A DNA stretch of 64,000 nucleotides, counting the filler, from Sphacelaria rigidula (taxonomy: Eukaryota), in the NCBI GenBank assembly GCA_964200075.2. It is 4 parts of 4 records of this genome, joined end to end, with 100 filler letters (N's around TTAATTAATTAA, not from the genome) between each part and the next. Parts side by side here need not be neighbours in the genome. Positions count along the whole stretch, not along the records: positions 48,219 to 64,000 come from CAXNAA020001595.1; 3 more parts are not named here. One strand, written 5' to 3'. Under the pieces are notes generated by a model. The model saw only the letters and a list, made by a program, of their open reading frames with translations, ran no database searches and was not told the origin of the DNA. The position numbers and the translations under genes were made by a program. Of this stretch, positions 48,219-62,000 are shown piece after piece (positions within the stretch are counted from its first letter, which is position 1; each line of letters starts with the position of its first letter).

Positions 48219-48722
48219 TTATCGCCTTGTATTTCGAAGTGGTGCAAGTAGCGTGATTGTATGTTCATGATGGACGATATTTTCTTGGGATATCTCGCGA
48301 GTTGTTCGGAAGTGGGGCCAGCTTGTATGGAGCTGTTGTCGAAAGAAGCGGAAGAGATTGCTATTCTTTGCGGAAAACGAAAGTACTGTCAGGCAGCAAT
48401 GATGTCTGAGTTTGTCAAGCTTTGATGTAACTACTTGTTGGTAGTAGAGAGTTTTGGGGGTGCTGTAGACTCTAGCCACCATTGTTACCTGAGGTTAGGG
48501 TCATTGTGTAGATGGAGTTGCGGGTCTGATTGCCGGACTCTGTGATGGTGACCTCCATGATGTCAGGCTTAGTCTTGCTACTCTGGTGGAGAGAAACCAT
48601 GGTCCTGTTCTCCTGTACTATGCTGAGGGTCGATACATGAATAACTGAAGCTGCTGAAGTCCATGTGCCCGTGATGGGAAGAGTCCACATGGCGATCTGA
48701 TCTTGAGTGACAGAAGTCTACA
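48219..48722 (+). repeat. Right end of the LTR-like module (ends GACAGAAGTCTACA)
   Basis: Highly similar to 58510-59007 and 54890-55145; abuts the truncated protease-coding region at 48723. Confidence 0.8.
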
Positions 48723-50290
48723 TCGGGCACCTAAGCTACTGTGCACGTCAATGCCCAGCGTCTCCAGCGCAGGGCTCAAAATGGTTATCACATAATCTGT
48801 AGCCGACATGATCGCATATGAACCTGGGTCCAGCACAACCGGTCCCCAGCTGGTGTATAAAGCGGTTCGGACAGGGTAAGTTTTCTGGTTCACGTGCTAA
48901 ACATTGCCGTTAGCCAGTTTCACCAGCTGTTCACCAAACATGGTTGTGACCACTCGAACATCCGGAACCATAGCTTCTAATTTCGCCTCTACTACACCCA
49001 CTGACATGGTCGTAGTTCCGGATCCCGAGTCTAAAATGGCCTTGACCGGACAAGCGCCTTTTTCCCCTGCACTCAGTACAGATAAGTCGACGAGACACCA
49101 TCTTTCCTCTTTTTCTACGCGTATACCCTCAGATTTTAAACCTGATACCTCACCCGGTTTAAGCGATCTCCACGACAACATCGCCTCAGATGTCCAGCGC
49201 GGGACTGTTTCTCCTATTTCCCCCCATAGGGTCTGCTGTACTTCACCAGTAGAAATGACCGGTTTTGGTGGTAGCATCGCTCCACTGCTGCTGGTAGCAC
49301 CCTCTCCATCGGCTGGAAATACAGTCCTTGTAGCGGCAGGACACTTGCCCCCTCCTCGAGGCACCTGTCCAGGGCCCTGCGACAGCTGCTGCTTTTGTTG
49401 CTGCGTGTCGCCGGCCTTCGACTGCCCACCTGCAGTACGTTGTGGAGCAGCAGCTTGGCTTTTCTGCTTACAATCCTTCACGAAGTGGCACTTGTCTCCA
49501 CATGAGAAACAACCTGCATAGCTTGGATCCGGTTTTACAGATTTCCCGGAACTGACAGTCTCACTGCCAAAGGTCGCCTTTTTTCCACCACTCGGTTCGC
49601 GCTTGGACCCGGAGGTCCCGCTGCTGCCCTTCTGTTTCAGCTGCGGCTGGTGACGGCGCTGTTTATCGGCCGCTTGTACCGTCTTCCATTCCGCTGCTGC
49701 TTCCCGAGCTGTATCATACACGAGCCCAGCATTCTCTTCCCACCCCCCCTTCATGTGCAGCATGTTGAGCACTTTTGTCTTGAACTCAGGGCGGCACATG
49801 CCAGCGAGCAATTCCCGCGTAATTATTAGAGAGCAGGAAGTCTCGTCCTCGCGGAACGCGCGCTTGATGCTCACGTTTTCGGCAAGAAACTCCTCGAGGG
49901 TATCCCACTGTCCCTCGATTCTACCCATGGCAGTCAATTCGTTGCGAGCGGCCAACGCCTTCCGCACACTCGCTGCAGCAACTGAGGGATCGATTTCTAT
50001 ATCAATCCGAAATTTTGCATGTCGGCCTACTACCTCCTTCAGATGTTCATTATCGGGTACCGATCCGTCAAATACTCTACGTGACACACACACGCGAATG
50101 TGCTTGGGCACGAGTTCTGTCACGGTCGATGAAGCGGCCTGTACCGTCCGCCCCTCATTGCTCAATTGTACGGTCTGTTCGCAATCGCTATACTTTTTTT
50201 GAACCGTCTGGAGGCACCTCCGCTGAAATGCCGTCCGTACTCCGGTGCTTTGAGCGATCCCCCTGGCATAAGGTCAGTATATCTAAACGT
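48723..50290 (-). pseudogene. Disrupted gag-protease of a Ty3/Gypsy-like LTR retrotransposon
   Basis: ORF 50165-48897 contains a CCHC knuckle (CFSCGDKCHFVKDC) and the aspartic protease motif AILDSGS. A 1-nt frameshift in an A7 run near 50194-50200 separates the N-terminus; an in-frame TAG at 48897-48899 is followed by more protease-like sequence (..ILSPALETLGIDV) up to 48723. Confidence 0.85.
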
Positions 50291-50889
50291 CACCTCATCG
50301 CCTGCACCGCTCCCACCACGTTTCCTGCGCGCTGCCATTCTTCCTTAGTTAGCTGCACGCAGTGCTTCGAGCCAACGTAGCCATCCCTCTGTTTAACGAG
50401 CTGCAACGAGCTGCAACGAGCTGCCTCGGGTTACAGACTGCACACCTGTCTGCGTACAATACAAAAATGTTTTTGCAGAGACTGTCCGCAGCAGAAAAAA
50501 ACTTTGCCAGCAACCAGTAGATTCCCTGAATGAACGTTCATTATAGACCCCTCCTGAATTCAGAACAAGGTCACAAAAGTGCTCCAAGGGCTTCCTCCCT
50601 CATTAGGGCTTGAAGACTCCAAGACGGAGGTTGTTCACAAACACACAGTCTTTGTTACCGGAAGTAATCTTGCACCGCCTTGGACACATGTACGTTTAAG
50701 CAGTCATAGTCATTCGTCGGAGAACATCTCATGATCTGACATTATGATGCAAGCCTCACACCCAAACCCCCATGCATCTGTAACTCCTCATGCACCTGGT
50801 CGTGTACTGGACGTGGACTACTCTACAAAGCGAGCTTGCCATGAGAGACAAAGGCTCTGGTTGCTTGTGGCTGTCGGACCGGCCCAAAA

Positions 50890-51540
50890 TTGGGGACACA
50901 CCTTGCATGCTCACCGCTGCAAGGGGGTGTTATCTTCGTGGTGAGAGTTAGCAGAGAAAGCTCGGGGCTTGCGATGCTCAGGGCGAGCCTATCTGCCCCA
51001 GTAATCCGGTGGGAGTTTGTTCAGATGATTCGCAGGGGTGTCTGCTTGCAGGAAAAGTGGATGCCGGGTTGGCGGGTTTGGATCCGCTGTATTGCGTGGT
51101 GTTGCGGTGGTCACCCCGCATTGCTGTTTACATCGACAGCTTTGGCGTATTTGGCGGCAATGACGGAGGTGCCTCCACTATTGCACCGCGGGGTGTTTGA
51201 GGAGGGTAGTGTGCCATCAGGAGGTGTTGCTGTTCGGGACTGTGTAGCTGTTCCCGCTTCGCCTCTCGTTTTCTCTGTAAAACTGACTGAAGCACAGGTG
51301 TTCAGCATTGCCCAAGTATCTGTGGAGGCAGATGGCTTGTCGAAGTGGTTCGGTGGTGCGGAGATACCGCTTAGTGGCGAGCTGAGTGGCTCCACGAGGG
51401 TGCGAGCTGAAGCTGGACTCATGGCGCGAGGAGCGAGTCTTCGAGTGGAAACGCTGCTCTACCCTGTGCACGAGGTCGTGGTTCGACTGCTGCTGTTTCT
51501 CAGGAGCGGGCTGGAGGACTACAAACAAGGCATTACCTGA
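50890..51540 (+). CDS. Hypothetical ORF inside the LTR-like module (copy 1)
   Basis: 216 open codons, homologous to ORF 56195-57025 with the same C-terminus LLFLRSGLEDYKQGIT*. No recognised domain; start uncertain. Confidence 0.3.
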   Translation: MGTHLACSPLQGGVIFVVRVSRESSGLAMLRASLSAPVIRWEFVQMIRRGVCLQEKWMPGWRVWIRCIAWCCGGHPALLFTSTALAYLAAMTEVPPLLHRGVFEEGSVPSGGVAVRDCVAVPASPLVFSVKLTEAQVFSIAQVSVEADGLSKWFGGAEIPLSGELSGSTRVRAEAGLMARGASLRVETLLYPVHEVVVRLLLFLRSGLEDYKQGIT

Positions 51541-53015
51541 GATGTTTGCTGTTGTGGTGAGCGCCGAGTTGGGTGCTGATGTCGAGGAGCAAGTCCTGAG
51601 GTGATTGAGTACTTGTTGAGAATGATGAACCACATTATCACTGGTATTCGCAAATCGTTTCGAGAATGATTGCAGCTTGTTATTGTGTGGTTTGTGGTCA
51701 TGTTTGCGCATGAAACATCGTTGCTGAGTGAGCATGATTGTATCGCGTGTGCAGGGTAAAATCATGGCGTACACGTGTATATTTGGCATGTGTGTGTTGT
51801 GCTGATCTGGTTGGCACGGACGACACATGGTGTTTGCTGCGAGAGAGGTCGTATTGCATGTGCTGGGTGAAAAGTTGGCATGCATGTTTGGAATTTTCGC
51901 TACAGTATGGTACTAGTGCGCATGGTATCTGGCGAAGAGTCAGGGTGAGGCAGTCCTCAATATGCTGCTGTAGGCTCGATGAGACGAACCTCGTATATTC
52001 CTGTTCACACAGACACGCGACGGAGTTCTCTTTGTGCAGTTTGTGGGTACCGATTGTAGGAGATGGTGATTGCTGCTGTTGGCGTGAACATGGGCAGTAA
52101 CTACGAAATGCGTAGGCTCGTATGTGCGCAAGGAAAACGCGAGTGTTTCTTGTGATTGAAGATGAGTAACCTTTAGCTATGGAACGTCTTGTAGGATAAT
52201 ATTTCATTTCCGTGAGGAAGGACTATATGGATGGAGTGTCCGTTTGTCTAAGAAAGCGGTGCTGGTGAGCTGCAAATCTGTTGGGATATGAGCTGCATTT
52301 TACATCGCGGTTAATCGACCGATGGGATATGACGGTCCTGGATACAAGTTGGGATATTATATCTGGGTGAGTTCTGGGGTGTACTCGGTAAATCAAATTT
52401 GAGAACGATGTCACCACGGGTGATCAATGATGGCGGAGGTCGAGATCCGTTTGTCGTTGTTGGATTGGTATGCATGGCTTGGAAAGCGGTTTGAGTCATT
52501 TTTTTTTTTTTATTATGCTCGTGTGTTGAGTGGCGCAATAAAGTTGTCAAGCATTCACGGAGAAGAGGTGTGCGATGCAGACGTTTTCACGGAGTTGAAC
52601 ATGCAAGAGACCAGCTGCATTCTAGACGTGTTGGATACTTATTTGATTCTAGTTTTAGGTATATTGCTTGGCTGTTGCATTCCGTCTGACGTTTGAGATT
52701 TTGCCGGTTTGGATTCAGGAGACTTGTTCGGGGCATGGGCTTGAGAATTGGGCGTCAGCTATCGCTCCGTGACTCGAAGCGATGCAAGTAGCGTGATTGC
52801 GTGTTCATGATGGACGTTTTGTATCTCTTGCGAGTTGTTCGGAAATTGGACAAGCTTGTGCGGCTGTCATCGCATACTGCGGTAGGGATTCCCACTCTAG
52901 GTTGACTACTTGTTGGTAGTAAGCGAGCTTTGGGGGTGCTGCAGACTCCGGGCAACATTGTTACCGTGGTTAGGTACATGACTGCAGTCGAAAAAATGCA
53001 TAGCAGGCGCTTCAA

Positions 53016-53453
53016 TACGGCACCCTACCAATTGGGGATGGATCTTTTATTGGGGATGAGAAACCCGGAGAATTAAAATCTTCGTATCCACACCAAATCT
53101 TCGAAGTATGGTTCCATGTCTTCACCTAGTGATAGCTATCGACAATTGCTACATGCCATACCAATTTGGATTTCGATCACCGGAATGTTGGGATCCTATG
53201 TGAAAAAACAAATCGGGAATCCCGGGTGTCTGAACGGACGCCTTAATGGTTCCGAAATTGTTTTTTCTCAGAGGACCCCAACATTTCGGTGATCGAAATC
53301 CACACTTGTATGGCGTGTAGCAGTTCTCAATAGCTATCAGTAGGTGAAGAAATGGAACCGTATTTCGAAGATTTGGTGTGGATACGAAGATTTGAGTTCT
53401 CCGGGTTTCTCATCCTCAATGAAAGACTCATCCCCAATTTGTAAGATCCCGTG
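53016..53453. mobile_element. Foldback MITE with ~200-bp inverted arms inserted in module copy 1
   Basis: 53026 TACCAATTGGGGATG..GAAACCCGGAGAA..CTTCGTATCCACACCAAATCTTCGAA mirrored up to CATCCCCAATTTGTA 53443; ~30-nt loop. Confidence 0.85.
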
Positions 53454-54274
53454 TTATGGGCTGGTTGATGGATAACGGGTCTGAGAGTATGATCGGTGGA
53501 CTCCATGATGTATGATGTTTGCACACGAGGTGCGCCGGCCACTTCTCGTTGTAGCGAAGACCGCTGTTTGTATAACTGCTTGAGTCTTGAAGTCTCTGGA
53601 GCCTGTGACAGGGAGGAAGCCTCTGGAGCAGCACTGTGACCTTATTCTGATTTCAGACAAGCCTACAAACTCGTGATATAGTCGAACTCTCCCCCGGTCT
53701 TCCCATCTATTCTGGACGCCGGTCTACATTTTTCTGTATATGTGGGCACACCAGCCTGGGTCACACAGGAAGAAGGTGAACACAGGAGTTGTTTTTAGGA
53801 CTCCACCTTTCTTCACCGGTGCTTGCCTTTATTTTTTATCGCGAGAGGGGTTCAGCAGCTCTTTTCCCTCGTCGACCTTCAAGTTGAATTGTGTGCTTGG
53901 GTGGCACAATCACGTGCTTGATCCTGAGTCTTGCCATGTCAAAACGTTTCGGCTGCCTCCCAAGCACAAAAACAGCGTCTCTTCCCGTAAACCAACACGA
54001 GCTTTGTCACTATGGCAACCACAGCACCTCTTTTCACGCAGTTCTCACCACATTTTGGAGTGCTTCGTAGACTCCTTGCCTGATGTCATCTTCTCAACAG
54101 CCTCCCATCATCGCAGTCGCCTTGGGTTTGTGTGGCCTGCGCCGTTCTCTCCACCGCTTCCTCCCCCCCCCTGTTATCCAACGTGAGCGTCCTCGGGTTC
54201 TATCTATTACACTGTGGGGTGCGACGTCAAAAACCTAATCCAGAAACCGACAGATTTCCTCAATACACATTTAT

Positions 54275-55145
54275 TGTAGACTTGTCTGATTTCAGAACAA
54301 GGTCACAGTGCTGCTCCAGAGGCTTCCTCCCTATCAAGGGCTCCAGAGACTACAAGACTACAGCTATCTTCCTTGAACCAGAAGTGATCCCTGCTTTGCT
54401 CTCTCTGCAAACACAAGATGTTACGCATTCAATAATGATCCTCCAATCCATTTCCACAAGATCCAACCTGATATCCACATGCTACTGTACTCCTCGTGCT
54501 AGAGAGGTGCTCCTGTACTTTCTCGATTGTGGGCCGAAAAGCAATTTCTGAAAAGCGAAGGTTCCACTTAGTTGTTGCCGCCAGACCAGCGCGTAGCTCG
54601 ACATACTCCTTGTACGCTCGAAGAACCTGCAGTGGTGAGTCGTTTGCGTCATACGAACGAGCAGAGCAAGCAAAGCGAGCTTGGGGCTCACCATGCTCAT
54701 GGCGGATCTATCTGCGCCAAAGAAATGGCGAGAGAAGGTTCAGGTGATTCGCAGGGGTGTATGCTTATGCTTGAAGGAGAGGTGGATGCCGGGTTGGCGG
54801 AGCTGCCGCCGGACCAGTGTGTAGCTGAGGTCACGCCTTACATGCTCGAAGCAGCAGAGGGGGGGGGGGTCTTATTCGCGTAATACAAGCGATGTAGACT
54901 CCAGTCACAATTGTTAGCTAGGGACATTTCTAGGTGGAGTTGCGGGTCTGGTTGACGAACTCTGTGATTGTGACCTCCATGACGAGTAGAGCCGGTTTTG
55001 CCACTCTGGTGGAGAGAGGCTATGGTCCTGTTCTCCTGTACTATGCTGAGGGTTGATACATAAGTAACTAAAGCTGCTGAAGCCCATGTGCCCGTGATGG
55101 GAAGAGTCCACATGGCAATCTGATCTTGAGTGACAGAAGTCTACA
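54275..55145. repeat. Internally deleted LTR-like module, copy 2 (TGTAGACTT...AAGTCTACA)
   Basis: Perfect 9-bp terminal inverted repeat with TG..CA ends; left end, part of the body and right end all match the other copies. Confidence 0.8.
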
Positions 55146-55735
55146 ATGAACGTTCATTAAGTCCGCTGACTAGCGGTAGGTCCGCTGAAAAGCAGCTGAC
55201 ACTTCAAGATAGGAAAGTCTGCAGGCCTGATCAGTTTGCAGCAAACAAGGCCAGCTCAAGGCGTGTTAACGTCGCGAGGAGTTGGAGAAATAGAGCCGAG
55301 GAGGTTCTGAGGCTGTGGTATCGCTCGTGCGAGAGTGCGGGGGGTTGACCGACAGCTGGCGAGCCCGCGCGCGTTCCAGAAAAAGCGGCGCAATTACCAT
55401 ACTGCCTGGTGGAGCCAGCGGGGTTTGAATGTTCCACGCTTGGCCAGGCACGGCCAGGAAGAGGAGTCTAAGGACTTCAAACGGTGACACCTGCGTGACG
55501 AAGAGGTGCTTTGGCCATTGTCGTTTGGTGGCCAAGCGCGTCTTGATATAAGGAGAGGGTTTTTGTTCCTGTGAGTGGGAGACGACTTCGTTTTTCAAAA
55601 AGACGTGTGGGGTGCTGTACTGCTGACCGAAATGTACGAGGTCAGGAGTATATCGCGGTGGATGACCATGTTGTTCGTGCGCCGTAACAATATGTTGTCA
55701 TCGATGATCGCGCTGTCCGTGTACGATTTCTGGAT

Positions 55736-56155
55736 ATGCCCTACTACGGTCGCAGGTTCTCAAGTGAAAAGTCTACTCAGTTTCTGCGGAAGTATGAAAA
55801 CTACCTTCGTAAGGTGCACGCAACGAACGTGCGTCAAGCACCCTGGCACGCTGTTGAGATTCCAGCGGTCTCTGACCTCTTGCCCGCCCATATCGAAAAC
55901 TGTCTATGTGACACATTTTTGGATGGTGCGAATGATGTCGGGCAAGAGAAATTGCTCTTTGCGCTGCGCAAGCATGGATCTTATGCATCGCCGAGTGTGG
56001 TGCAAGATAGTGTGAAGGTCGGCGGCGGTGGAGACAGGCACGACATTTTGACGGGCAAGACGGCGACACAACATAGGCTTGTCCGAGGGGACAGGCACGA
56101 GAGTGCTAGAGGCGCAAACCGGACAGAAGGTGGCGACTGTAGCGAGTATGGGTGA
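55736..56155 (+). pseudogene. Truncated gag-like ORF, divergent homologue of the 50290-48723 gag N-terminus
   Basis: PYYGRRFSSEKSTQFLRKY..V..N..VSDLLPAHIENCLCDTFLDG aligns by eye with PEYGRHFSGGASRRFKKKY..V..N..VTELVPKHIRVCVSRRVFDG. Confidence 0.65.
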
Positions 56156-56169
56156 TACTGCTGCTGCTG

Positions 56170-59007
56170 CTGGCAATGTTGAGAGGTTGTACTGGTGGGC
56201 GGAGGTCCCAGTCGCTTGTTGCCGCCGGACCAGCGCGTAGCTGGAGATACTCCTTGCATGCTCGAAGCTGCAGAGTGGTACTATTCGCGTATGGCGAGCG
56301 AGCAGGGTGAGCAAGGAGCTTGCCGTGCTCATGGTGAATCTATCTGCGCCAGTGACATGGCGGGATATCGTTCAGATGATTCGCAGGCGTGTCTACTTGA
56401 AGAACAGGTAGATGCCGGGTTGGCGGAATTGCCGCCGGGCCAGCACGTAGCTGTGGACACGCCTTGTATGATCGAAACAATAGGGGCGTGTGACCGACGT
56501 GAAGCGGGTACGCAGAGCGAGCTGCAAGCTCGTGATGCTGTTAGCAATCACTATTCTGACGGCGACGACGAGCGTCGCGTGGTGTTGGGATGGTCGTGTG
56601 CACTGCTGTATGCATGGACAGGTTTGGCGTGTTTGGCGGCGTTGATTGCGGTGTCTTTGCCGCTGTACGGTCAGGTGCTGGAGGAGGATGGCGTGATGCC
56701 ATCGGGAGGTGTTGCTGTGCGGGACTGTATGGATGTTCCCGTTTTGCCTCTTACTTCCTCTGTAAAAGCGACTGAAGAACGAGCGTTCGTGAGTGCGCAA
56801 GCATCTGTGGGGGCGGAGGATATGTCGCATTGGTTTGGCGGTGCGAGTATACCTTTAAGCGGCGTGTTCAGCGACACCATGGGGGTGCCAGGTGTAGCAA
56901 GACTGAGGGTGCAAGGACGGAGTGTCCGAGAGGAAACGCTGCTCTACGCTGTGCACGGGGTTGTGGTTCGAGTACTGCTGTTTCTCAGGAGCGGGCTGGA
57001 GGACTACAAACAAGGCATTACCTGAGGTGTTTGCTGTTGCGGTGAGAGCCGAGTTGGGTACTGATGTTGAGGAGCAAGTGCTGTGGTGATTGAGTGCTTG
57101 TTGAGAATGAGGAAACACATTACGACTGGTATTCGCGAATCGTTTTGAGAATGATTTCAGCTTGTTATCGTGTGGTTTGTGGTCATGCTTACGCATGAAA
57201 CATGGTTGTTGAGCGAGTATGATCGTATGGCGTGTGCAGGGTAAAATCCTGGCGTACACGTGTATATTTGGCATGTGTGTGTTGCGCTGATGTGGTCGGC
57301 ACGGACGATGCATGGTGTTTGATGCGAGAAAGGTGGCATTGAATGTGCTGAGTGAAATATTGACATGCATGTACGGATTTTCATACACTGAGCGGAATTT
57401 TGGCAGGCATGAGCGAATTTTTGCTCGAATGGTACTGATATGAACGGTATTTGGTGACGACCTAGGGTGGGTCAGTTTTCAATATACTGCTGTATGCTAA
57501 ATGAAGTGAAGCTCGTATGATCTTGTTCGCGTAGGAACACAGTCTCATCATATTTGTGCGGTTTGCACATACTGACTACAGGATATATGGATTGGGCTGC
57601 TAGCTAGAAAATGAGCTGAAATATACGAAATGCGTAGGCTCGTACCGACTGTAGGAGACGGTGACACCTGCTGTCAGCGTGATAATCAGCAAGAGCTATG
57701 AAATGCGTACGCTCGTCGTATGTGAGCAGGTATGACGCGAGTGCTTCCGGTGGTTGAAGATAAAGACATTATGCGGGCATGCATCAATGATCTTTCACCG
57801 TGGCACGTTTTTGTGTGGATTGTCAAGTGTTTGAACGAGCACGTGGTTGGTTTTTCGTTCATGTAAGAAGGAGCATGTGGATGATGCGTCCATTTGTTCA
57901 AAGAACTGGTGCAGGTGGACTGCAAGAGTGTTGAGAAAATCATTAGTTCTACATTTTGGCTGATGCACGGATAGGATATGACGGTCCAAGATCTAAACGA
58001 GATATAGAAATGTCTGGGATTTGCTCGAAAACAAGAGTTTGAGAACGAGATCACGAGAGATGATCGATGATGGCGGAGGTCGAGGTCCGTTCGCCGTCGT
58101 TGGTTTATAGTATGCATGACTTGAATAGCGGTTGAGTCATGGCTTTCCTTTGATTGTCTGACTAACATGATGGCAAGTTGAAGCATTGAAGCTTTGTCGG
58201 CGGGGAGGCATGCGATGCATACGTTTCTTACGGTGTTGCAGAAGCAAGAAGCCAGGCGCGTTTAGACGTGTTGGGTGCATGTTTCCTCCTAGCGTGAGGA
58301 TTTTGTATGATTTGGCTGTTGCACTCCGTTGCGCAGGTGTTGAACGTACAAAAAGTGCATTTTGTATGTTGAGAAGTACCTTGTCTCGGATGAGAGGGAC
58401 GATGAGTCACGAATGCTCTGGAGTTTGACGTTTGCTGACATTTCCGTTGTCGTGCCGATGAAGAGTCAAGAGACTTGTTTTGGGCGAAGATTTGAGAATT
58501 TCGCGCTAGCTATCGCTTTGTAAGTCGAAGTGGTGCAAGTAGCGTGATTGCATGTTCATGATGGACGATATTTTCTTGGAATCTCTTGCGATTTGTTCGG
58601 AAGTGGGGCAAGCTTGTATGGAGCTATTGTCGAAAGCAGCGGAAGAGATTGCTATTATTTGCGGAAACGACGGTACTATCAGGCAGCAATAATGTCTGAG
58701 TTTGTCAAGCTCTGATGTAACTACTTGTTGGTAGTAGAGAGCTTTGGGGGTGCTGTAGACCTAGCCACCATTGTTACCTAAGGTCAGGGACATTGTAGGT
58801 AGAGTTGCGGTTCTGATTGCCGAACTCTGTGATGGGTGACCTCCATGATGAGTAGAGCCGGTTTTGCTACTCTGGTGGAGAGAGGCTATGGTCCTGTTCT
58901 CCTGTACTATGGTGAGGGTTAATATATAACTGAAGCTGCTGAAGTCCATGTGCACGTGATGGGAGGAGTCCACATGGCAATCTGATCTTGATTGACAGAA
59001 GTCTACA
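56170..59007. repeat. LTR-like module, copy 3 (left end missing; ends GACAGAAGTCTACA)
   Basis: Diverged direct repeat of ~50860-52980 plus the right end; a further degenerate right end lies at ~59400-59853. Confidence 0.75.
56195..57025 (+). CDS. Hypothetical ORF inside the LTR-like module (copy 3), with an internal repeat and a hydrophobic segment
   Basis: 276 open codons; LPPDQRVAGDTPCMLE / LPPGQHVAVDTPCMIE repeat; hydrophobic VVLGWSCALLYAWTGLACLAALIAVSLPLY; homologous to 50890-51540. Confidence 0.35.
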   Translation: MGGGPSRLLPPDQRVAGDTPCMLEAAEWYYSRMASEQGEQGACRAHGESICASDMAGYRSDDSQACLLEEQVDAGLAELPPGQHVAVDTPCMIETIGACDRREAGTQSELQARDAVSNHYSDGDDERRVVLGWSCALLYAWTGLACLAALIAVSLPLYGQVLEEDGVMPSGGVAVRDCMDVPVLPLTSSVKATEERAFVSAQASVGAEDMSHWFGGASIPLSGVFSDTMGVPGVARLRVQGRSVREETLLYAVHGVVVRVLLFLRSGLEDYKQGIT

Positions 59008-62000
59008 TATCGCTGTAGGTCACCGTACCGCAGTGTAAAGTTGTAGAGTTCTGCGTTGCACTCTCTGTACTGCACTGGCTGTACCCTAGCACTGCAGTGG
59101 CCTGTGGTGCGCCGTGATGGATTGAAGTACAGCAGGTGCAATGAATTGTAGTGTACGGTACATACGGTGCCGCAGGGTATGATACAGTCAATGCTGCGCT
59201 GACCTGTGTATTTTCGGACTACACGCTGGTCGATCGCACAGTGGCAGCACAACCTGCAGCCGATTACTTCGAAAAAAACAATCCCGCGTCAAGCCACGTC
59301 ACATTAGCTTCCGGTATGAACTTGTTAGCGTCCACTCTGAAGTTTCAGCGCTTCCACTCTGCACTCTGACTCTATGATGAAGAAAAATATCTTCCGAACC
59401 TCTCTACTGTGTATGGAGCTATTATTTAAAACAGCGGTAGGGATGAATTGCTATCTTATGCGGAAAATGACGATACTACCAGGCAACAGTGATGTCTGAG
59501 TTTTTCAAGCTCTATTTTGACTACTTGTCGCCATCAAAATAAATGTGGGGGTGCTGTAGACTCTAGCTATCATTGTTGGCTAGGTTAGGGACTAGTAGGC
59601 GTTTACCGCTGCTTGATGTGATGAATCACGGGTCTGCGGATCTGATCGGTGGACTCTGGGAGTGTTTATCTCCATGATATGTAGGGTTACTTTTTCGACT
59701 CCATGGTAAGCGGGAAAGAGAGGCTCTGACCTCTTCTCCGGTACAATGAACAACTAAGGTTTAATACATGAATAACTAAAGCTGCTGAAATGCACGTGCC
59801 CATGATGAGAGGGGTCCATATAGCTGTCTGATCTTCAGTGACAAAGGTTTATAGTAGGTCTACCTTCTGTATCGCAATTCACCTGAGTTTTTAAACCACG
59901 ACAAGAGCACGACATAAGTTGAACACAAACAATACAAAACTACTTTTTTTCCAATACTCATTGCGCACGCTCATCGCAAAGTTACGGTGTAGCCAATATA
60001 TACATTGGGCACGCTCACGAAGGAATACATCGGGCGTTTTCGGCATCTGGTGATACATCTTTCAATGGCGCTCGAGAATACCAAAGTATATTCTACATTG
60101 ATTACTATCCACTTACTTTCCAATACATGTTAAACCAGTAATTTGTATATCTATAATATATACACCAAAGTTTCGGCGCCTGTGCCGCCACGATCAGTAG
60201 ATCGACATCCGAGTGCGTTGCGGAATGGCAAAGGTTATGGTTTGGAGAAGAAGCCGTAGCTGCTGACAGCTGAGTATGTAGTGCGTAACGAATTAAGTTT
60301 GAAAATGATGCCGATTCCAAAAATTAATATATTTGTCTCGTTTGTAGTCCGAAGAGGAACATAGATGTCCCGTTCACAGGGACACATGCAAAGGCTTAAC
60401 ATTGATAAACAACCAAGCACCATCTGTCATGCTACGAGAAGGGGGGTGTATTTTGAGCCGTTTTTTCCACGAAACTCTACGTGTAATCGTCGTTGATAGC
60501 AGCAACGGTAGCTCGAACGCGCTTGCTTCCGATTCGTAACGCTCATTCATACTGTTTGACATCGCTTTTACCCAAATACAAGCGCACCACGAGTGTGTTG
60601 GGTCATCTAGTGCACCTATGAGCCCATTTTTTCGTGGAATCGAACCCCCCCCCCCCTATCGTAGCAGTACAAGGCTCAAGCCGTAGCTGCTCATCACCTG
60701 AGCTGTGGGTGACCTTGCATATATCTGTCAAGAATTCAATGAGAAACGGTGATTCGTTCGAGACCCTCGAGTACCGGTGATAATAGTGTGCGTTGCGTAG
60801 TGGCACAGGTCATACTTCGAAGAAAACGCCGTAGCTGACCCCTGCTATAATGCAGCAGTACAATATGTCAACACCCTGAGTGCGAGCATATCCTGCGTTA
60901 CAAGCAGTGTAATGTGTCAGTACCCTGAGTGCGGGCATGTTGGAATTCGATGTGTGCGCCGAGGCACATATGGCACCGGTATCGAAAGCTGGAACGTACA
61001 TTTTTTATGCAGAGGAGCGTGTGCCGACGTGCAGACTGGTTTCGGCGACAAAGATGGAGGAGAATCAGTAGACGACGGACGGGTTAGATCTGGTTGAGCC
61101 TCCTGGACGAGTCACTTACTACAAACCAGAGTCAGAGTGCATCACGAAGGAGGACGTGTTTCATCACGGAAGGAAGCAGAGGGGGTACTGTTTGGGGAAG
61201 GAAGCAGAGTGGACATCGGCGAGGATGGGCGGTCGGGTTGGCCATTGACGTTGGTGAGGGCAGATCGGAATATTGCCGACTGAAATCTGGGATAGTAAAA
61301 ACCGGTACGCTACATCGTGAAAACGGTTACATGTGCGGTAGAGTAGCAGTTTGGACCGCCATACACGTGCAGGCTATTTCATCTAGCCGTTCACTTTGTG
61401 GGGTCGATGCTTGGCATGGGAAGCGAGAAAGAGGTAAATCGTATGAAGCCGCTGGCTGTTTGTTGTGCACCGGACAATCTCTCCAAAGACGTCTATTATG
61501 ATGATTCAGTGCCGACTTTCGCCGGCATACGTGGGTTGGCGTGGTTTAGCGGATTGTGCCACTTCATACAAAATTGCTCTTATACTCTCTGGGAGGATTC
61601 TAGCCCACGTTTTCGAACTTTCGTGCGCCCAGTTTGACTTTTGACCAGATAAATAATTTGTCGAACAGCCCACAAAAATTGTCACTCAAGTGAGCCAAAA
61701 ACAAGTCTGGGAGAGACCTCGAAGGTTTTTGTGGACTGTTTACCGTTTGAGAAATCAGCAAGACTTTTTCGAGGTGTCACAATCTGCAAAGCCTCGACCT
61801 GCTATTACTACCGTACTCCGTGGAAATTCGGCGCTGAATCGCCGAACAATACTGTATTGGTACTACGTACGACTTTCTTGGAGAAATTGTGTCCCTTTCC
61901 CTACTGAAATTTAATTTAAATTTTCGCGTGGTGATACTCGTAGTGTGACCCGTTTTTTCCGCACATCAACTACGTGCCGATATACTTAGTAGTCCTCCCT

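What the first reader, a model, noticed from the sequence alone, without database searches (positions are those of the whole stretch)
50530..55157. 12-bp palindrome ATGAACGTTCAT sits exactly at the module terminus ahead of both gag genes, in place of a tRNA PBS
Seen: GTCTATA|ATGAACGTTCAT on the minus strand (palindrome 50530-50541) and GTCTACA|ATGAACGTTCAT on the plus strand (55146-55157); the leaders beyond it are dissimilar. Ends not followed by a gag start (48722, 53667, 54275, 59007) lack it. Established: the primer-binding site follows the 5' LTR and normally begins TGG, while Tf1-type elements self-prime. Inference: a non-tRNA priming signal (self- or dimer-priming through a self-complementary sequence), an RNA dimerisation site, or a recombinase/target site.
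Basis: partly seen in the sequence, partly recalled or inferred. Interest (0 to 1): 0.7.

Follow-up and report, generated by a model that had tools for sequence, protein, structure and literature searches.

The report
Palindromic primer site in algal retrotransposons
A deep branch of gypsy-type jumping genes, including those of this probable brown alga, carries a perfectly self-complementary 10-16-letter sequence exactly where such elements normally bind a host tRNA, which suggests that two copies of the element's RNA likely pair there and one primes the copying of the other.

Summary
Confirmed and wider than reported. The 'module termini' are 5' LTR ends of a chromodomain Ty3/gypsy family and its gag-only dependant, probably in a brown alga. 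The palindrome is 14 bp when the LTR's last A is counted. It occurs 116 times in the genome against 13 for the control. The autonomous family mostly carries ATAAACGTTTAT, a double change that keeps the symmetry. In distant relatives from metagenomes a blind rule found an LTR-end palindrome in 24 of 37 loci (2.2 expected). There are 21 different palindromes with 7 different centres, and palindrome-bearing and TGG-primed elements lie on opposite sides of one branch (SH-aLRT 100). No tRNA match above chance, no Tf1-type complement in the LTR and no GalEa-type second arm were found. The perfect but variable centre points to an RNA-RNA dimer. I favour priming in trans, where one RNA is cut after its palindrome and primes on its partner (about 0.5; no RNA or cDNA evidence). 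Closest published case: the palindromic CHSeq1 of fungal GalEa copia elements, mechanism unknown. This scan noted similar sites before in Aduncisulcus gypsy and diatom copia elements.

The parts
50529..50542 (-). 14-bp palindrome AATGAACGTTCATT (12-mer 50530-50541 plus the LTR's last A and the next base) at the primer-binding position of element A (family 2)
50542..50827 (-). 5' LTR of element A, family 2 (TGTAGAG...GTCTATA, 286 bp)
48723..50380 (-). gag-protease of element A (CCHC-type finger, LDSG protease motif; open frame 48897-50273), cut off by an inserted family-1 element
48464..48722 (+). 3' LTR of a family-1 element, preceded by the polypurine tract; no palindrome after it
54893..55145 (+). 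5' LTR of element B, family 1 (TGTAGAC...GTCTACA)
55145..55158 (+). 14-bp palindrome AATGAACGTTCATT (12-mer 55146-55157) at the primer-binding position of element B
55552..56122 (+). decayed gag-like frame of element B; no protease, RT or integrase match in the element
58754..59007 (+). 3' LTR of family 1 after the polypurine tract; probable right end of element B (no target duplication with 54893)
54263..54274 (-). decayed family-2 palindrome ATAAATGTGTAT after the LTR end at 54275
54275..54446 (-). part of a decayed family-2 5' LTR (aligned part only)
53541..53667 (+). part of a family-2 LTR (3' or solo), no palindrome after it
59555..59853 (+). diverged family-1 3' LTR after a polypurine tract, no palindrome after it

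Best explanation
The palindrome takes the place of the tRNA primer-binding site in a whole Ty3/gypsy branch, and it likely primes reverse transcription in trans through an RNA dimer. Shown: position at the 5' LTR end, overlap with the LTR's last A, conservation of symmetry rather than sequence, perfect centres, absence at 3' LTRs, and no tRNA or LTR complement. Inferred: (1) the two packaged RNAs pair antiparallel over the 10-16-nt palindrome; (2) one RNA is cut at the 3' edge of its palindrome, probably by the element's RNase H as published for the Tf1 duplex; (3) the new 3'-OH sits opposite the partner's U5 end and starts minus-strand strong-stop DNA; (4) plus-strand strong-stop DNA copies the palindrome from the primer, so the second strand transfer uses it like an ordinary PBS; something (RNase H trimming or the U5 hairpin) must stop copying into the primer's R-U5 tail.
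For: Own genome: 63 of 83 family-1 junction rows read ATGAACGTTCAT (one site counted twice) and 37 of 57 family-2 rows read ATAAACGTTTAT. All 27 family-2 loci picked by gag protein in which a 5' junction was found carry the motif, 13 of them perfect. Relatives: 24 of 37 scorable loci against 2.2 expected; 6 of 6 foreign loci whose LTR end is fixed by a repeat pair. The 21 distinct palindromes have 7 different central 4-mers; the loop of a hairpin need not be symmetric. Isolated palindromes give hairpins of 0 to -1.8 kcal/mol but duplexes of -4.4 to -16.5. 24 palindrome rows and 7 TGG rows are split by one branch, SH-aLRT 100. Precedent for RNase H cutting an RNA duplex to make a primer: Tf1 (title of Levin 1996 seen in the reference list). 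One LTR-palindrome-inverted-LTR junction, the predicted read-through product, exists in the assembly.
Against: No RNA end, cDNA or particle data support cleavage or priming. The palindromes are AT-rich (18% GC) and some duplexes are weak (-4.4 and -5.0 kcal/mol), so other contacts or Gag chaperoning would be needed. In local folds the palindrome is often partly paired in cis (mean unpaired 0.33-0.96). The model needs an unexplained stop for plus-strand synthesis, and only one of the two RNAs may be cut. Swaps of palindrome type between co-packaged families are rare: 2 of 57 family-2 copies (about 0.4 expected from independent changes) and 1 of 83 family-1 rows, which belongs to an older subfamily. 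Mismatched A/C forms were as common as or commoner than G-U wobble forms (8 against 2 of 100 rows). The single inverted junction lies at a contig end and may be an artefact. One clade member (L179) shows no palindrome.
Confidence: 0.5

Rival explanations
1. The palindrome is only a dimerisation and packaging signal (like a retroviral DIS or Ty1 PAL); priming uses another, unidentified primer at or next to it.
For: It explains perfect, variable, intermolecular symmetry equally well. Palindromic dimer signals are published for HIV-1 and proposed for Ty1 (PMC3592414, passages). The gag-only family keeps it.
Against: A dimer signal need not abut the LTR end to the base. Here it starts at the last A in 27 of 29 listed sites and at +1 in the other 2, leaving no room for a separate PBS. 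No tRNA or LTR complement was found there.
Confidence: 0.22
2. Fold-back priming in cis: one RNA is cut after the palindrome and its 3' half snaps back onto its 5' half.
For: Same geometry, needs no partner; MFE folds of the window sites show a 5-6-bp stem with a 4-nt loop for some.
Against: Isolated hairpins are predicted unstable (0 to -1.8 kcal/mol). Loop bases would be free, yet nearly all clade members with a visible 5' end have a symmetric centre, where about 9% would by chance. Cutting the only RNA also separates the PBS from the template for the second transfer (inference).
Confidence: 0.1
3. A DNA-level symmetric site, bound by a dimeric host factor or by integrase or a recombinase.
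For: Perfect Watson-Crick symmetry with few G-U-type forms; ACGT cores are common.
Against: Seven different centres and 21 sequences do not fit one sequence-specific protein. The elements encode a DDE integrase and make 4-bp target duplications. It leaves priming unexplained.
Confidence: 0.08
4. Priming by an internal tRNA fragment, for instance of elongator tRNA-Met.
For: A nuclear tRNA-Met(CAT) gene can pair 10 nt (3 of them G-U) with both own-genome variants, ending at its position 32; L162 and L104 also reach 10.
Against: 41 and 51 of 150 shuffles reach 10 or more; 13 of 15 foreign palindromes pair 6 nt or fewer. The best Watson-Crick match is 5-6 nt. No TGG. It would not explain symmetry. 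Caveat: only 45-47 distinct tRNA genes were tested, many organellar.
Confidence: 0.04

Closest known systems
Conserved Hairpin Site (CHSeq1) of fungal GalEa Ty1/copia elements (Donnart et al. 2017, PMC5445492; section 10, passages and supplement hits read)
   Same: No tRNA PBS; a palindrome directly after the 5' LTR that includes the LTR's final A; proposed to replace the PBS; mechanism unknown.
   Different: Ty1/copia in fungi versus Ty3/gypsy here. 10 bp with two main sequences versus 10-16 bp with 21 sequences. GalEa usually has a second complementary arm (CHSeq2) 12-41 nt downstream; 0 of 29 sites here have one.
Tf1/Tj1/sushi/Tcn1 self-priming (PMC4600332 and PMC6317226, passages)
   Same: tRNA-independent; the primer is a cut 5' piece of the element's own RNA; Ty3/gypsy with chromodomain.
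   Different: Tf1 needs a complement of the PBS inside the 5' LTR and pairs in cis; here the best complement is 3-6 nt, and the site is its own complement.
ECR-1/ECR-2 and related unclassified chromodomain Ty3 elements of brown algae and oomycetes (PMC11541908, PMC12477816, bioRxiv 10.64898/2025.12.07.692804; passages)
   Same: About 6 kb, LTRs of 250-290 bp, 4-bp target duplication, C-terminal chromodomain, a dependent family sharing the polypurine-tract region, nearest named relatives in Ectocarpus, Phytophthora and Aphanomyces.
   Different: These papers say nothing about the primer site (0 hits for PBS, primer binding or palindrom in the main texts). Their sequence files could not be read, so identity with ECR is untested.
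Retroviral DIS and Ty1 PAL motifs (PMC3592414, passages)
   Same: Self-complementary RNA motifs for genome dimers.
   Different: They are 6 nt, lie in loops or elsewhere in the leader, and exist in addition to a tRNA PBS.
TR-GAG non-autonomous elements (PMC4350172, abstract start only)
   Same: Family 1 is under 4.2 kb with LTRs and only a gag-like frame.
   Different: Its primer site is a palindrome shared in form with the autonomous family.

Membership tests
Ty3/gypsy LTR retrotransposon | LTRs with TG...CA ends, polypurine tract, target-site duplication | tested here: met
   LTR pairs 86-99% alike; exact 4-bp duplication in 4 of 8 full pairs, 3 of 4 bases in 3, none in 1; many ends read TA instead of CA
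Ty3/gypsy LTR retrotransposon | domain order PR-RT-RH-INT | tested here: met
   RVT_1, RT_RNaseH, Integrase_H2C2 and a weak Chromo hit in that order in L063; protease hits below cut-off in L055
tRNA-primed elements | TGG-starting complement of a tRNA 3' end within 0-5 nt of the LTR | tested here: not met
   no TGG; best Watson-Crick match 5-6 nt over 45 tRNA genes
half-tRNA-primed elements | complement of an internal tRNA segment ending in the anticodon arm | tested here: inconclusive
   10-nt match with 3 G-U to tRNA-Met, reached by about 30% of shuffles and not by most relatives; tRNA set incomplete
Tf1/sushi self-priming | at least 10 nt in the 5' LTR complementary to the post-LTR site | tested here: not met
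   3-6 nt in 12 of 12 elements; 4 of the 12 LTRs are cut by the contig start
Tf1/sushi self-priming | RNase H cleavage of the RNA duplex yields the primer | not testable with these tools
   needs RNA-end or cDNA data; only contigs were available
fungal GalEa CHS | palindrome after the 5' LTR including its last A | tested here: met
   27 of 29 listed sites start at the last A
fungal GalEa CHS | second complementary arm CHSeq2 12-41 nt downstream | tested here: not met
   0 of 29; some GalEa families also list none
fungal GalEa CHS | Ty1/copia domain order and GalEa motifs | tested here: not met
   Ty3/gypsy order
ECR / ECR-like brown algal elements | RT phylogeny with ECR-1 and centromeric location | not testable with these tools
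   ECR sequence files unreadable; assembly in 27,214 contigs
tyrosine-recombinase retroelements (DIRS-like) | YR instead of DDE integrase, no target duplication | tested here: not met
   integrase and 4-bp duplications

The most novel reading that the evidence does not exclude
A fourth way to start LTR reverse transcription, beside whole tRNA, half tRNA and Tf1-type cis self-priming: one genomic RNA primes its partner through a palindromic dimer at the LTR edge. It would be ancestral to a large unnamed Ty3/gypsy branch (brown algae, oomycete-related and many environmental lineages) and reached independently by fungal GalEa copia elements.
Probability: 0.5. Interest if true: 0.85.

Novelty: new variant of a known kind. 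Interest (0 to 1): 0.7.

Why it matters
A plant-wide survey (PMC6317226) lists three primer types for LTR elements, and the fungal GalEa palindrome has had no mechanism since 2017. A deep gypsy branch with many independent palindromes, perfect in the centre and lacking a second arm, narrows the options to an intermolecular RNA duplex and makes the question testable with short RNAs. If priming is in trans, dimerisation and priming are one step, partner choice is written in 10-16 bases, and the element is free of host tRNAs and of tRNA-fragment silencing (inference). It also explains why PBS finders miss these elements.

Tried and rejected
Pfam found nothing for 8 window frames, bar one faint F-box hit at E 0.08; identification came from other copies. 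The viral-contig scan gave no relative. Sequencing runs: no RNA holder listed; laying three guessed-RNA runs and one untyped run, all contigs, showed cover of the LTR and leader but no pile-up of ends, and contigs cannot show ends, so this is no evidence either way. The profile search of representatives failed for length and was not repeated. Five MAGs that hold relatives gave no further clade member with a visible 5' end; other gypsy elements in them show TGG-type sites (L263, L264, L267, L269) and served as controls. Palindrome swaps between families looked like a signature of trans priming, but the counts are too low. The L186 and L122 hits of the blind test are probably chance. The LTR ends of L158, L168 and L190 (TA instead of CA) are uncertain. 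The figure 6e-23 printed is biased by selection for perfect palindromes and is not used. Levin 1996 is not held. Llorens 2009 has no passage on these terms, and Ustyantsev 2017 none on the primer site. Literature searches behind 'not found in print for gypsy elements'; subscription journals, Repbase reports and the unreadable FASTA and PDF supplements of PMC12477816 and PMC11541908 may hold a mention.
Full report
Observation. The window is four contigs joined by N linkers; the finding lies in G000:C1595. ATGAACGTTCAT is at 50530-50541 and 55146-55157 and nowhere else in the window with up to 2 mismatches. Each follows an LTR end at +1, and each is a 14-bp palindrome when the LTR's last A is included. 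The genome holds 116 exact sites against 13 for the control, and 13 of the 15 loci returned are LTR junctions. Of the ends said to lack it, 48722 and 59007 are 3' LTRs after a polypurine tract, 53667 is a 3' or solo LTR, and 54275 carries a decayed variant with a matching leader.

The elements. Element A (5' LTR 50827-50542, minus strand) encodes gag-protease and is cut by a family-1 insertion. Fuller copies show RT, RNase H, integrase and a weak chromodomain hit in gypsy order. Eight full LTR pairs give an exact 4-bp target duplication in 4, three of four bases in 3 and none in 1; the palindrome follows the 5' LTR only. Element B belongs to family 1, which has only a gag-like frame (26% identity over 100 residues to family-2 Gag) and no pol match, and which shares the polypurine tract with family 2. 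Several family-2 copies also lack RT-RNase H. The only relative of the gag-protease is labelled as a brown algal protein. Pol relatives are Ectocarpus at 65% and Phytophthora and Aphanomyces at 33-36%, so the host is probably a brown alga. The anatomy resembles ECR-1/ECR-2 (PMC11541908, passages), but their sequences were unreadable.

Symmetry, not sequence, is kept. In family 1, 63 of 83 junction rows read ATGAACGTTCAT (one site counted twice). In family 2, 37 of 57 read ATAAACGTTTAT and 2, including element A, the family-1 form. In the 100 rows listed of 164 matches, positions 3 and 10 were G/C 43 times, A/T 43, A/C 8, G/T 2 and other 4 (counted by hand). This is essentially one compensatory change between families. 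Among 30 loci picked by protein, 27 showed a 5' junction; all 27 have the motif, 13 perfect.

The clade. Scans gave 80 metagenome and 21 MAG contigs with related pol. I passed 60 of the 101 to a blind rule: a perfect palindrome of 10 bp or more starting at or right after a CA, within 450 nt upstream to 150 nt downstream of the polyprotein frame's start. 37 were scorable (23 lacked a 5' boundary), and 24 were positive against 2.2 expected from dinucleotide shuffles. Of the 13 negatives, 6 lie in the outgroup, 2 lack the 5' LTR, 1 was clipped by the window edge, 3 have a palindrome after TA, and 1 (L179) is unexplained; 2 positives (L122, L186) are probably chance. Where a repeat pair fixes the LTR end independently, 6 of 6 foreign elements have the palindrome there, for example AATAACGTTATT, AAAGAATTCTTT, ATTGATCAAT and AATAAACGTTTATT. 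The 29 listed sites give 21 distinct palindromes with centres AATT, ACGT, TTAA, AGCT, GATC, GCGC and TCGA. On an RT-RNase H tree, 24 palindrome rows and 7 rows with a TGG-type site (labelled by eye) lie on opposite sides of one branch (SH-aLRT 100, quick search, midpoint root); the Ectocarpus and oomycete proteins fall among the palindrome rows, but their DNA was not seen. The hosts of the environmental contigs are unknown.

Known priming modes fail. The best Watson-Crick match to 45 host tRNA genes is 5-6 nt. A 10-nt match with three G-U pairs to a nuclear tRNA-Met exists, but about 30% of shuffles reach it and 13 of 15 foreign palindromes do not; the tRNA set is incomplete. The Tf1 criterion (10 or more complementary bases in the LTR; PMC6317226, passages) is not met: 3-6 nt in 12 elements. 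A GalEa-type second arm is absent in 29 of 29.

Mechanism. A hairpin leaves its loop free, and a protein site fixes its sequence. A perfect, variable centre is what an antiparallel duplex of two identical RNAs requires. The isolated palindromes fold to 0 to -1.8 kcal/mol as hairpins and -4.4 to -16.5 as duplexes. Because the duplex abuts U5 to the base, a cut at the 3' edge of one strand would leave a 3'-OH ready to copy the partner's U5-R, the same geometry as the cut Tf1 primer but in trans (Tf1 account from PMC4600332 passages; the RNase H step from the title of Levin 1996 only). I put this at about 0.5, and a pure dimer signal with another primer at 0.22. Against it: weak AT-rich duplexes, partial cis pairing in local folds, no G-U excess, and an unexplained stop for plus-strand synthesis. 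Two weak hints: 2 of 57 family-2 copies carry the family-1 palindrome (about 0.4 expected), and one LTR-palindrome-inverted-LTR junction sits at a contig end. RNA data could not test any of this.

Comparison and novelty. The closest published case is CHSeq1 of fungal GalEa copia elements, a palindrome that also includes the LTR's last A and has no known mechanism (PMC5445492, section 10 and passages; supplement hits). Dictyostelid Skipper elements replace the PBS by a pyrimidine tract, a different solution (PMC5006619, passages). Ten library searches found no description of a palindromic site for gypsy elements, and three brown algal papers do not mention the primer site. Earlier notes of this scan report similar sites in Aduncisulcus gypsy and diatom copia elements; I did not check them, and they are not counted as support. 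What is added here is the clade-wide spread, the controls and the exclusion of a second arm.

Verdict. Real, ordinary in its carrier, unusual in its primer site: a new variant of a known but unexplained kind, with an even chance of being a fourth priming mechanism. Interest 0.7.

Noticed in passing
G000:C24191:5700-5823 (L227): LTR end, palindrome and inverted LTR end form a perfect 122-bp palindrome running to the contig end; the only such junction in the genome. Read-through or dimer by-product, or an assembly or library artefact.
   Followed up: partly
G000:C3765:1-390 (L228) and C2072:8751-8779 (L229): Head-to-head LTRs with two palindromes 24 nt apart; and a tandem duplication of the palindrome plus 5 nt of leader. 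Rearrangements centred on the palindrome.
   Followed up: partly
window 53014-53455: Long inverted repeat (206-nt arms, 86% complementary, 30-nt spacer), MITE-like; a related copy lies inside the family-1 element of L057.
   Followed up: no
family-2 palindrome, e.g. L047:1230-1243: AATAAACGTTTATT contains AATAAA on both strands, and many clade palindromes start with AATAA-like words; many are followed by AG. Meaning unknown.
   Followed up: no
window 50845-51540 and 56183-57025; 51217-51912 and 56855-57478: Related open frames on both strands in the 3' part of family-1-type elements, without Pfam match; possibly extra ORFs.
   Followed up: no
L176-L196, G001, G003: Bacterial MAGs carry many eukaryotic gypsy contigs as contamination (24 matches in G003).
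   Followed up: partly
window about 15982, 32053, 48119: N runs with TTAATTAATTAA are contig linkers, not biology.
   Followed up: yes
LTR ends genome-wide: About half of the LTR ends read TATA instead of TACA in both families.
   Followed up: no
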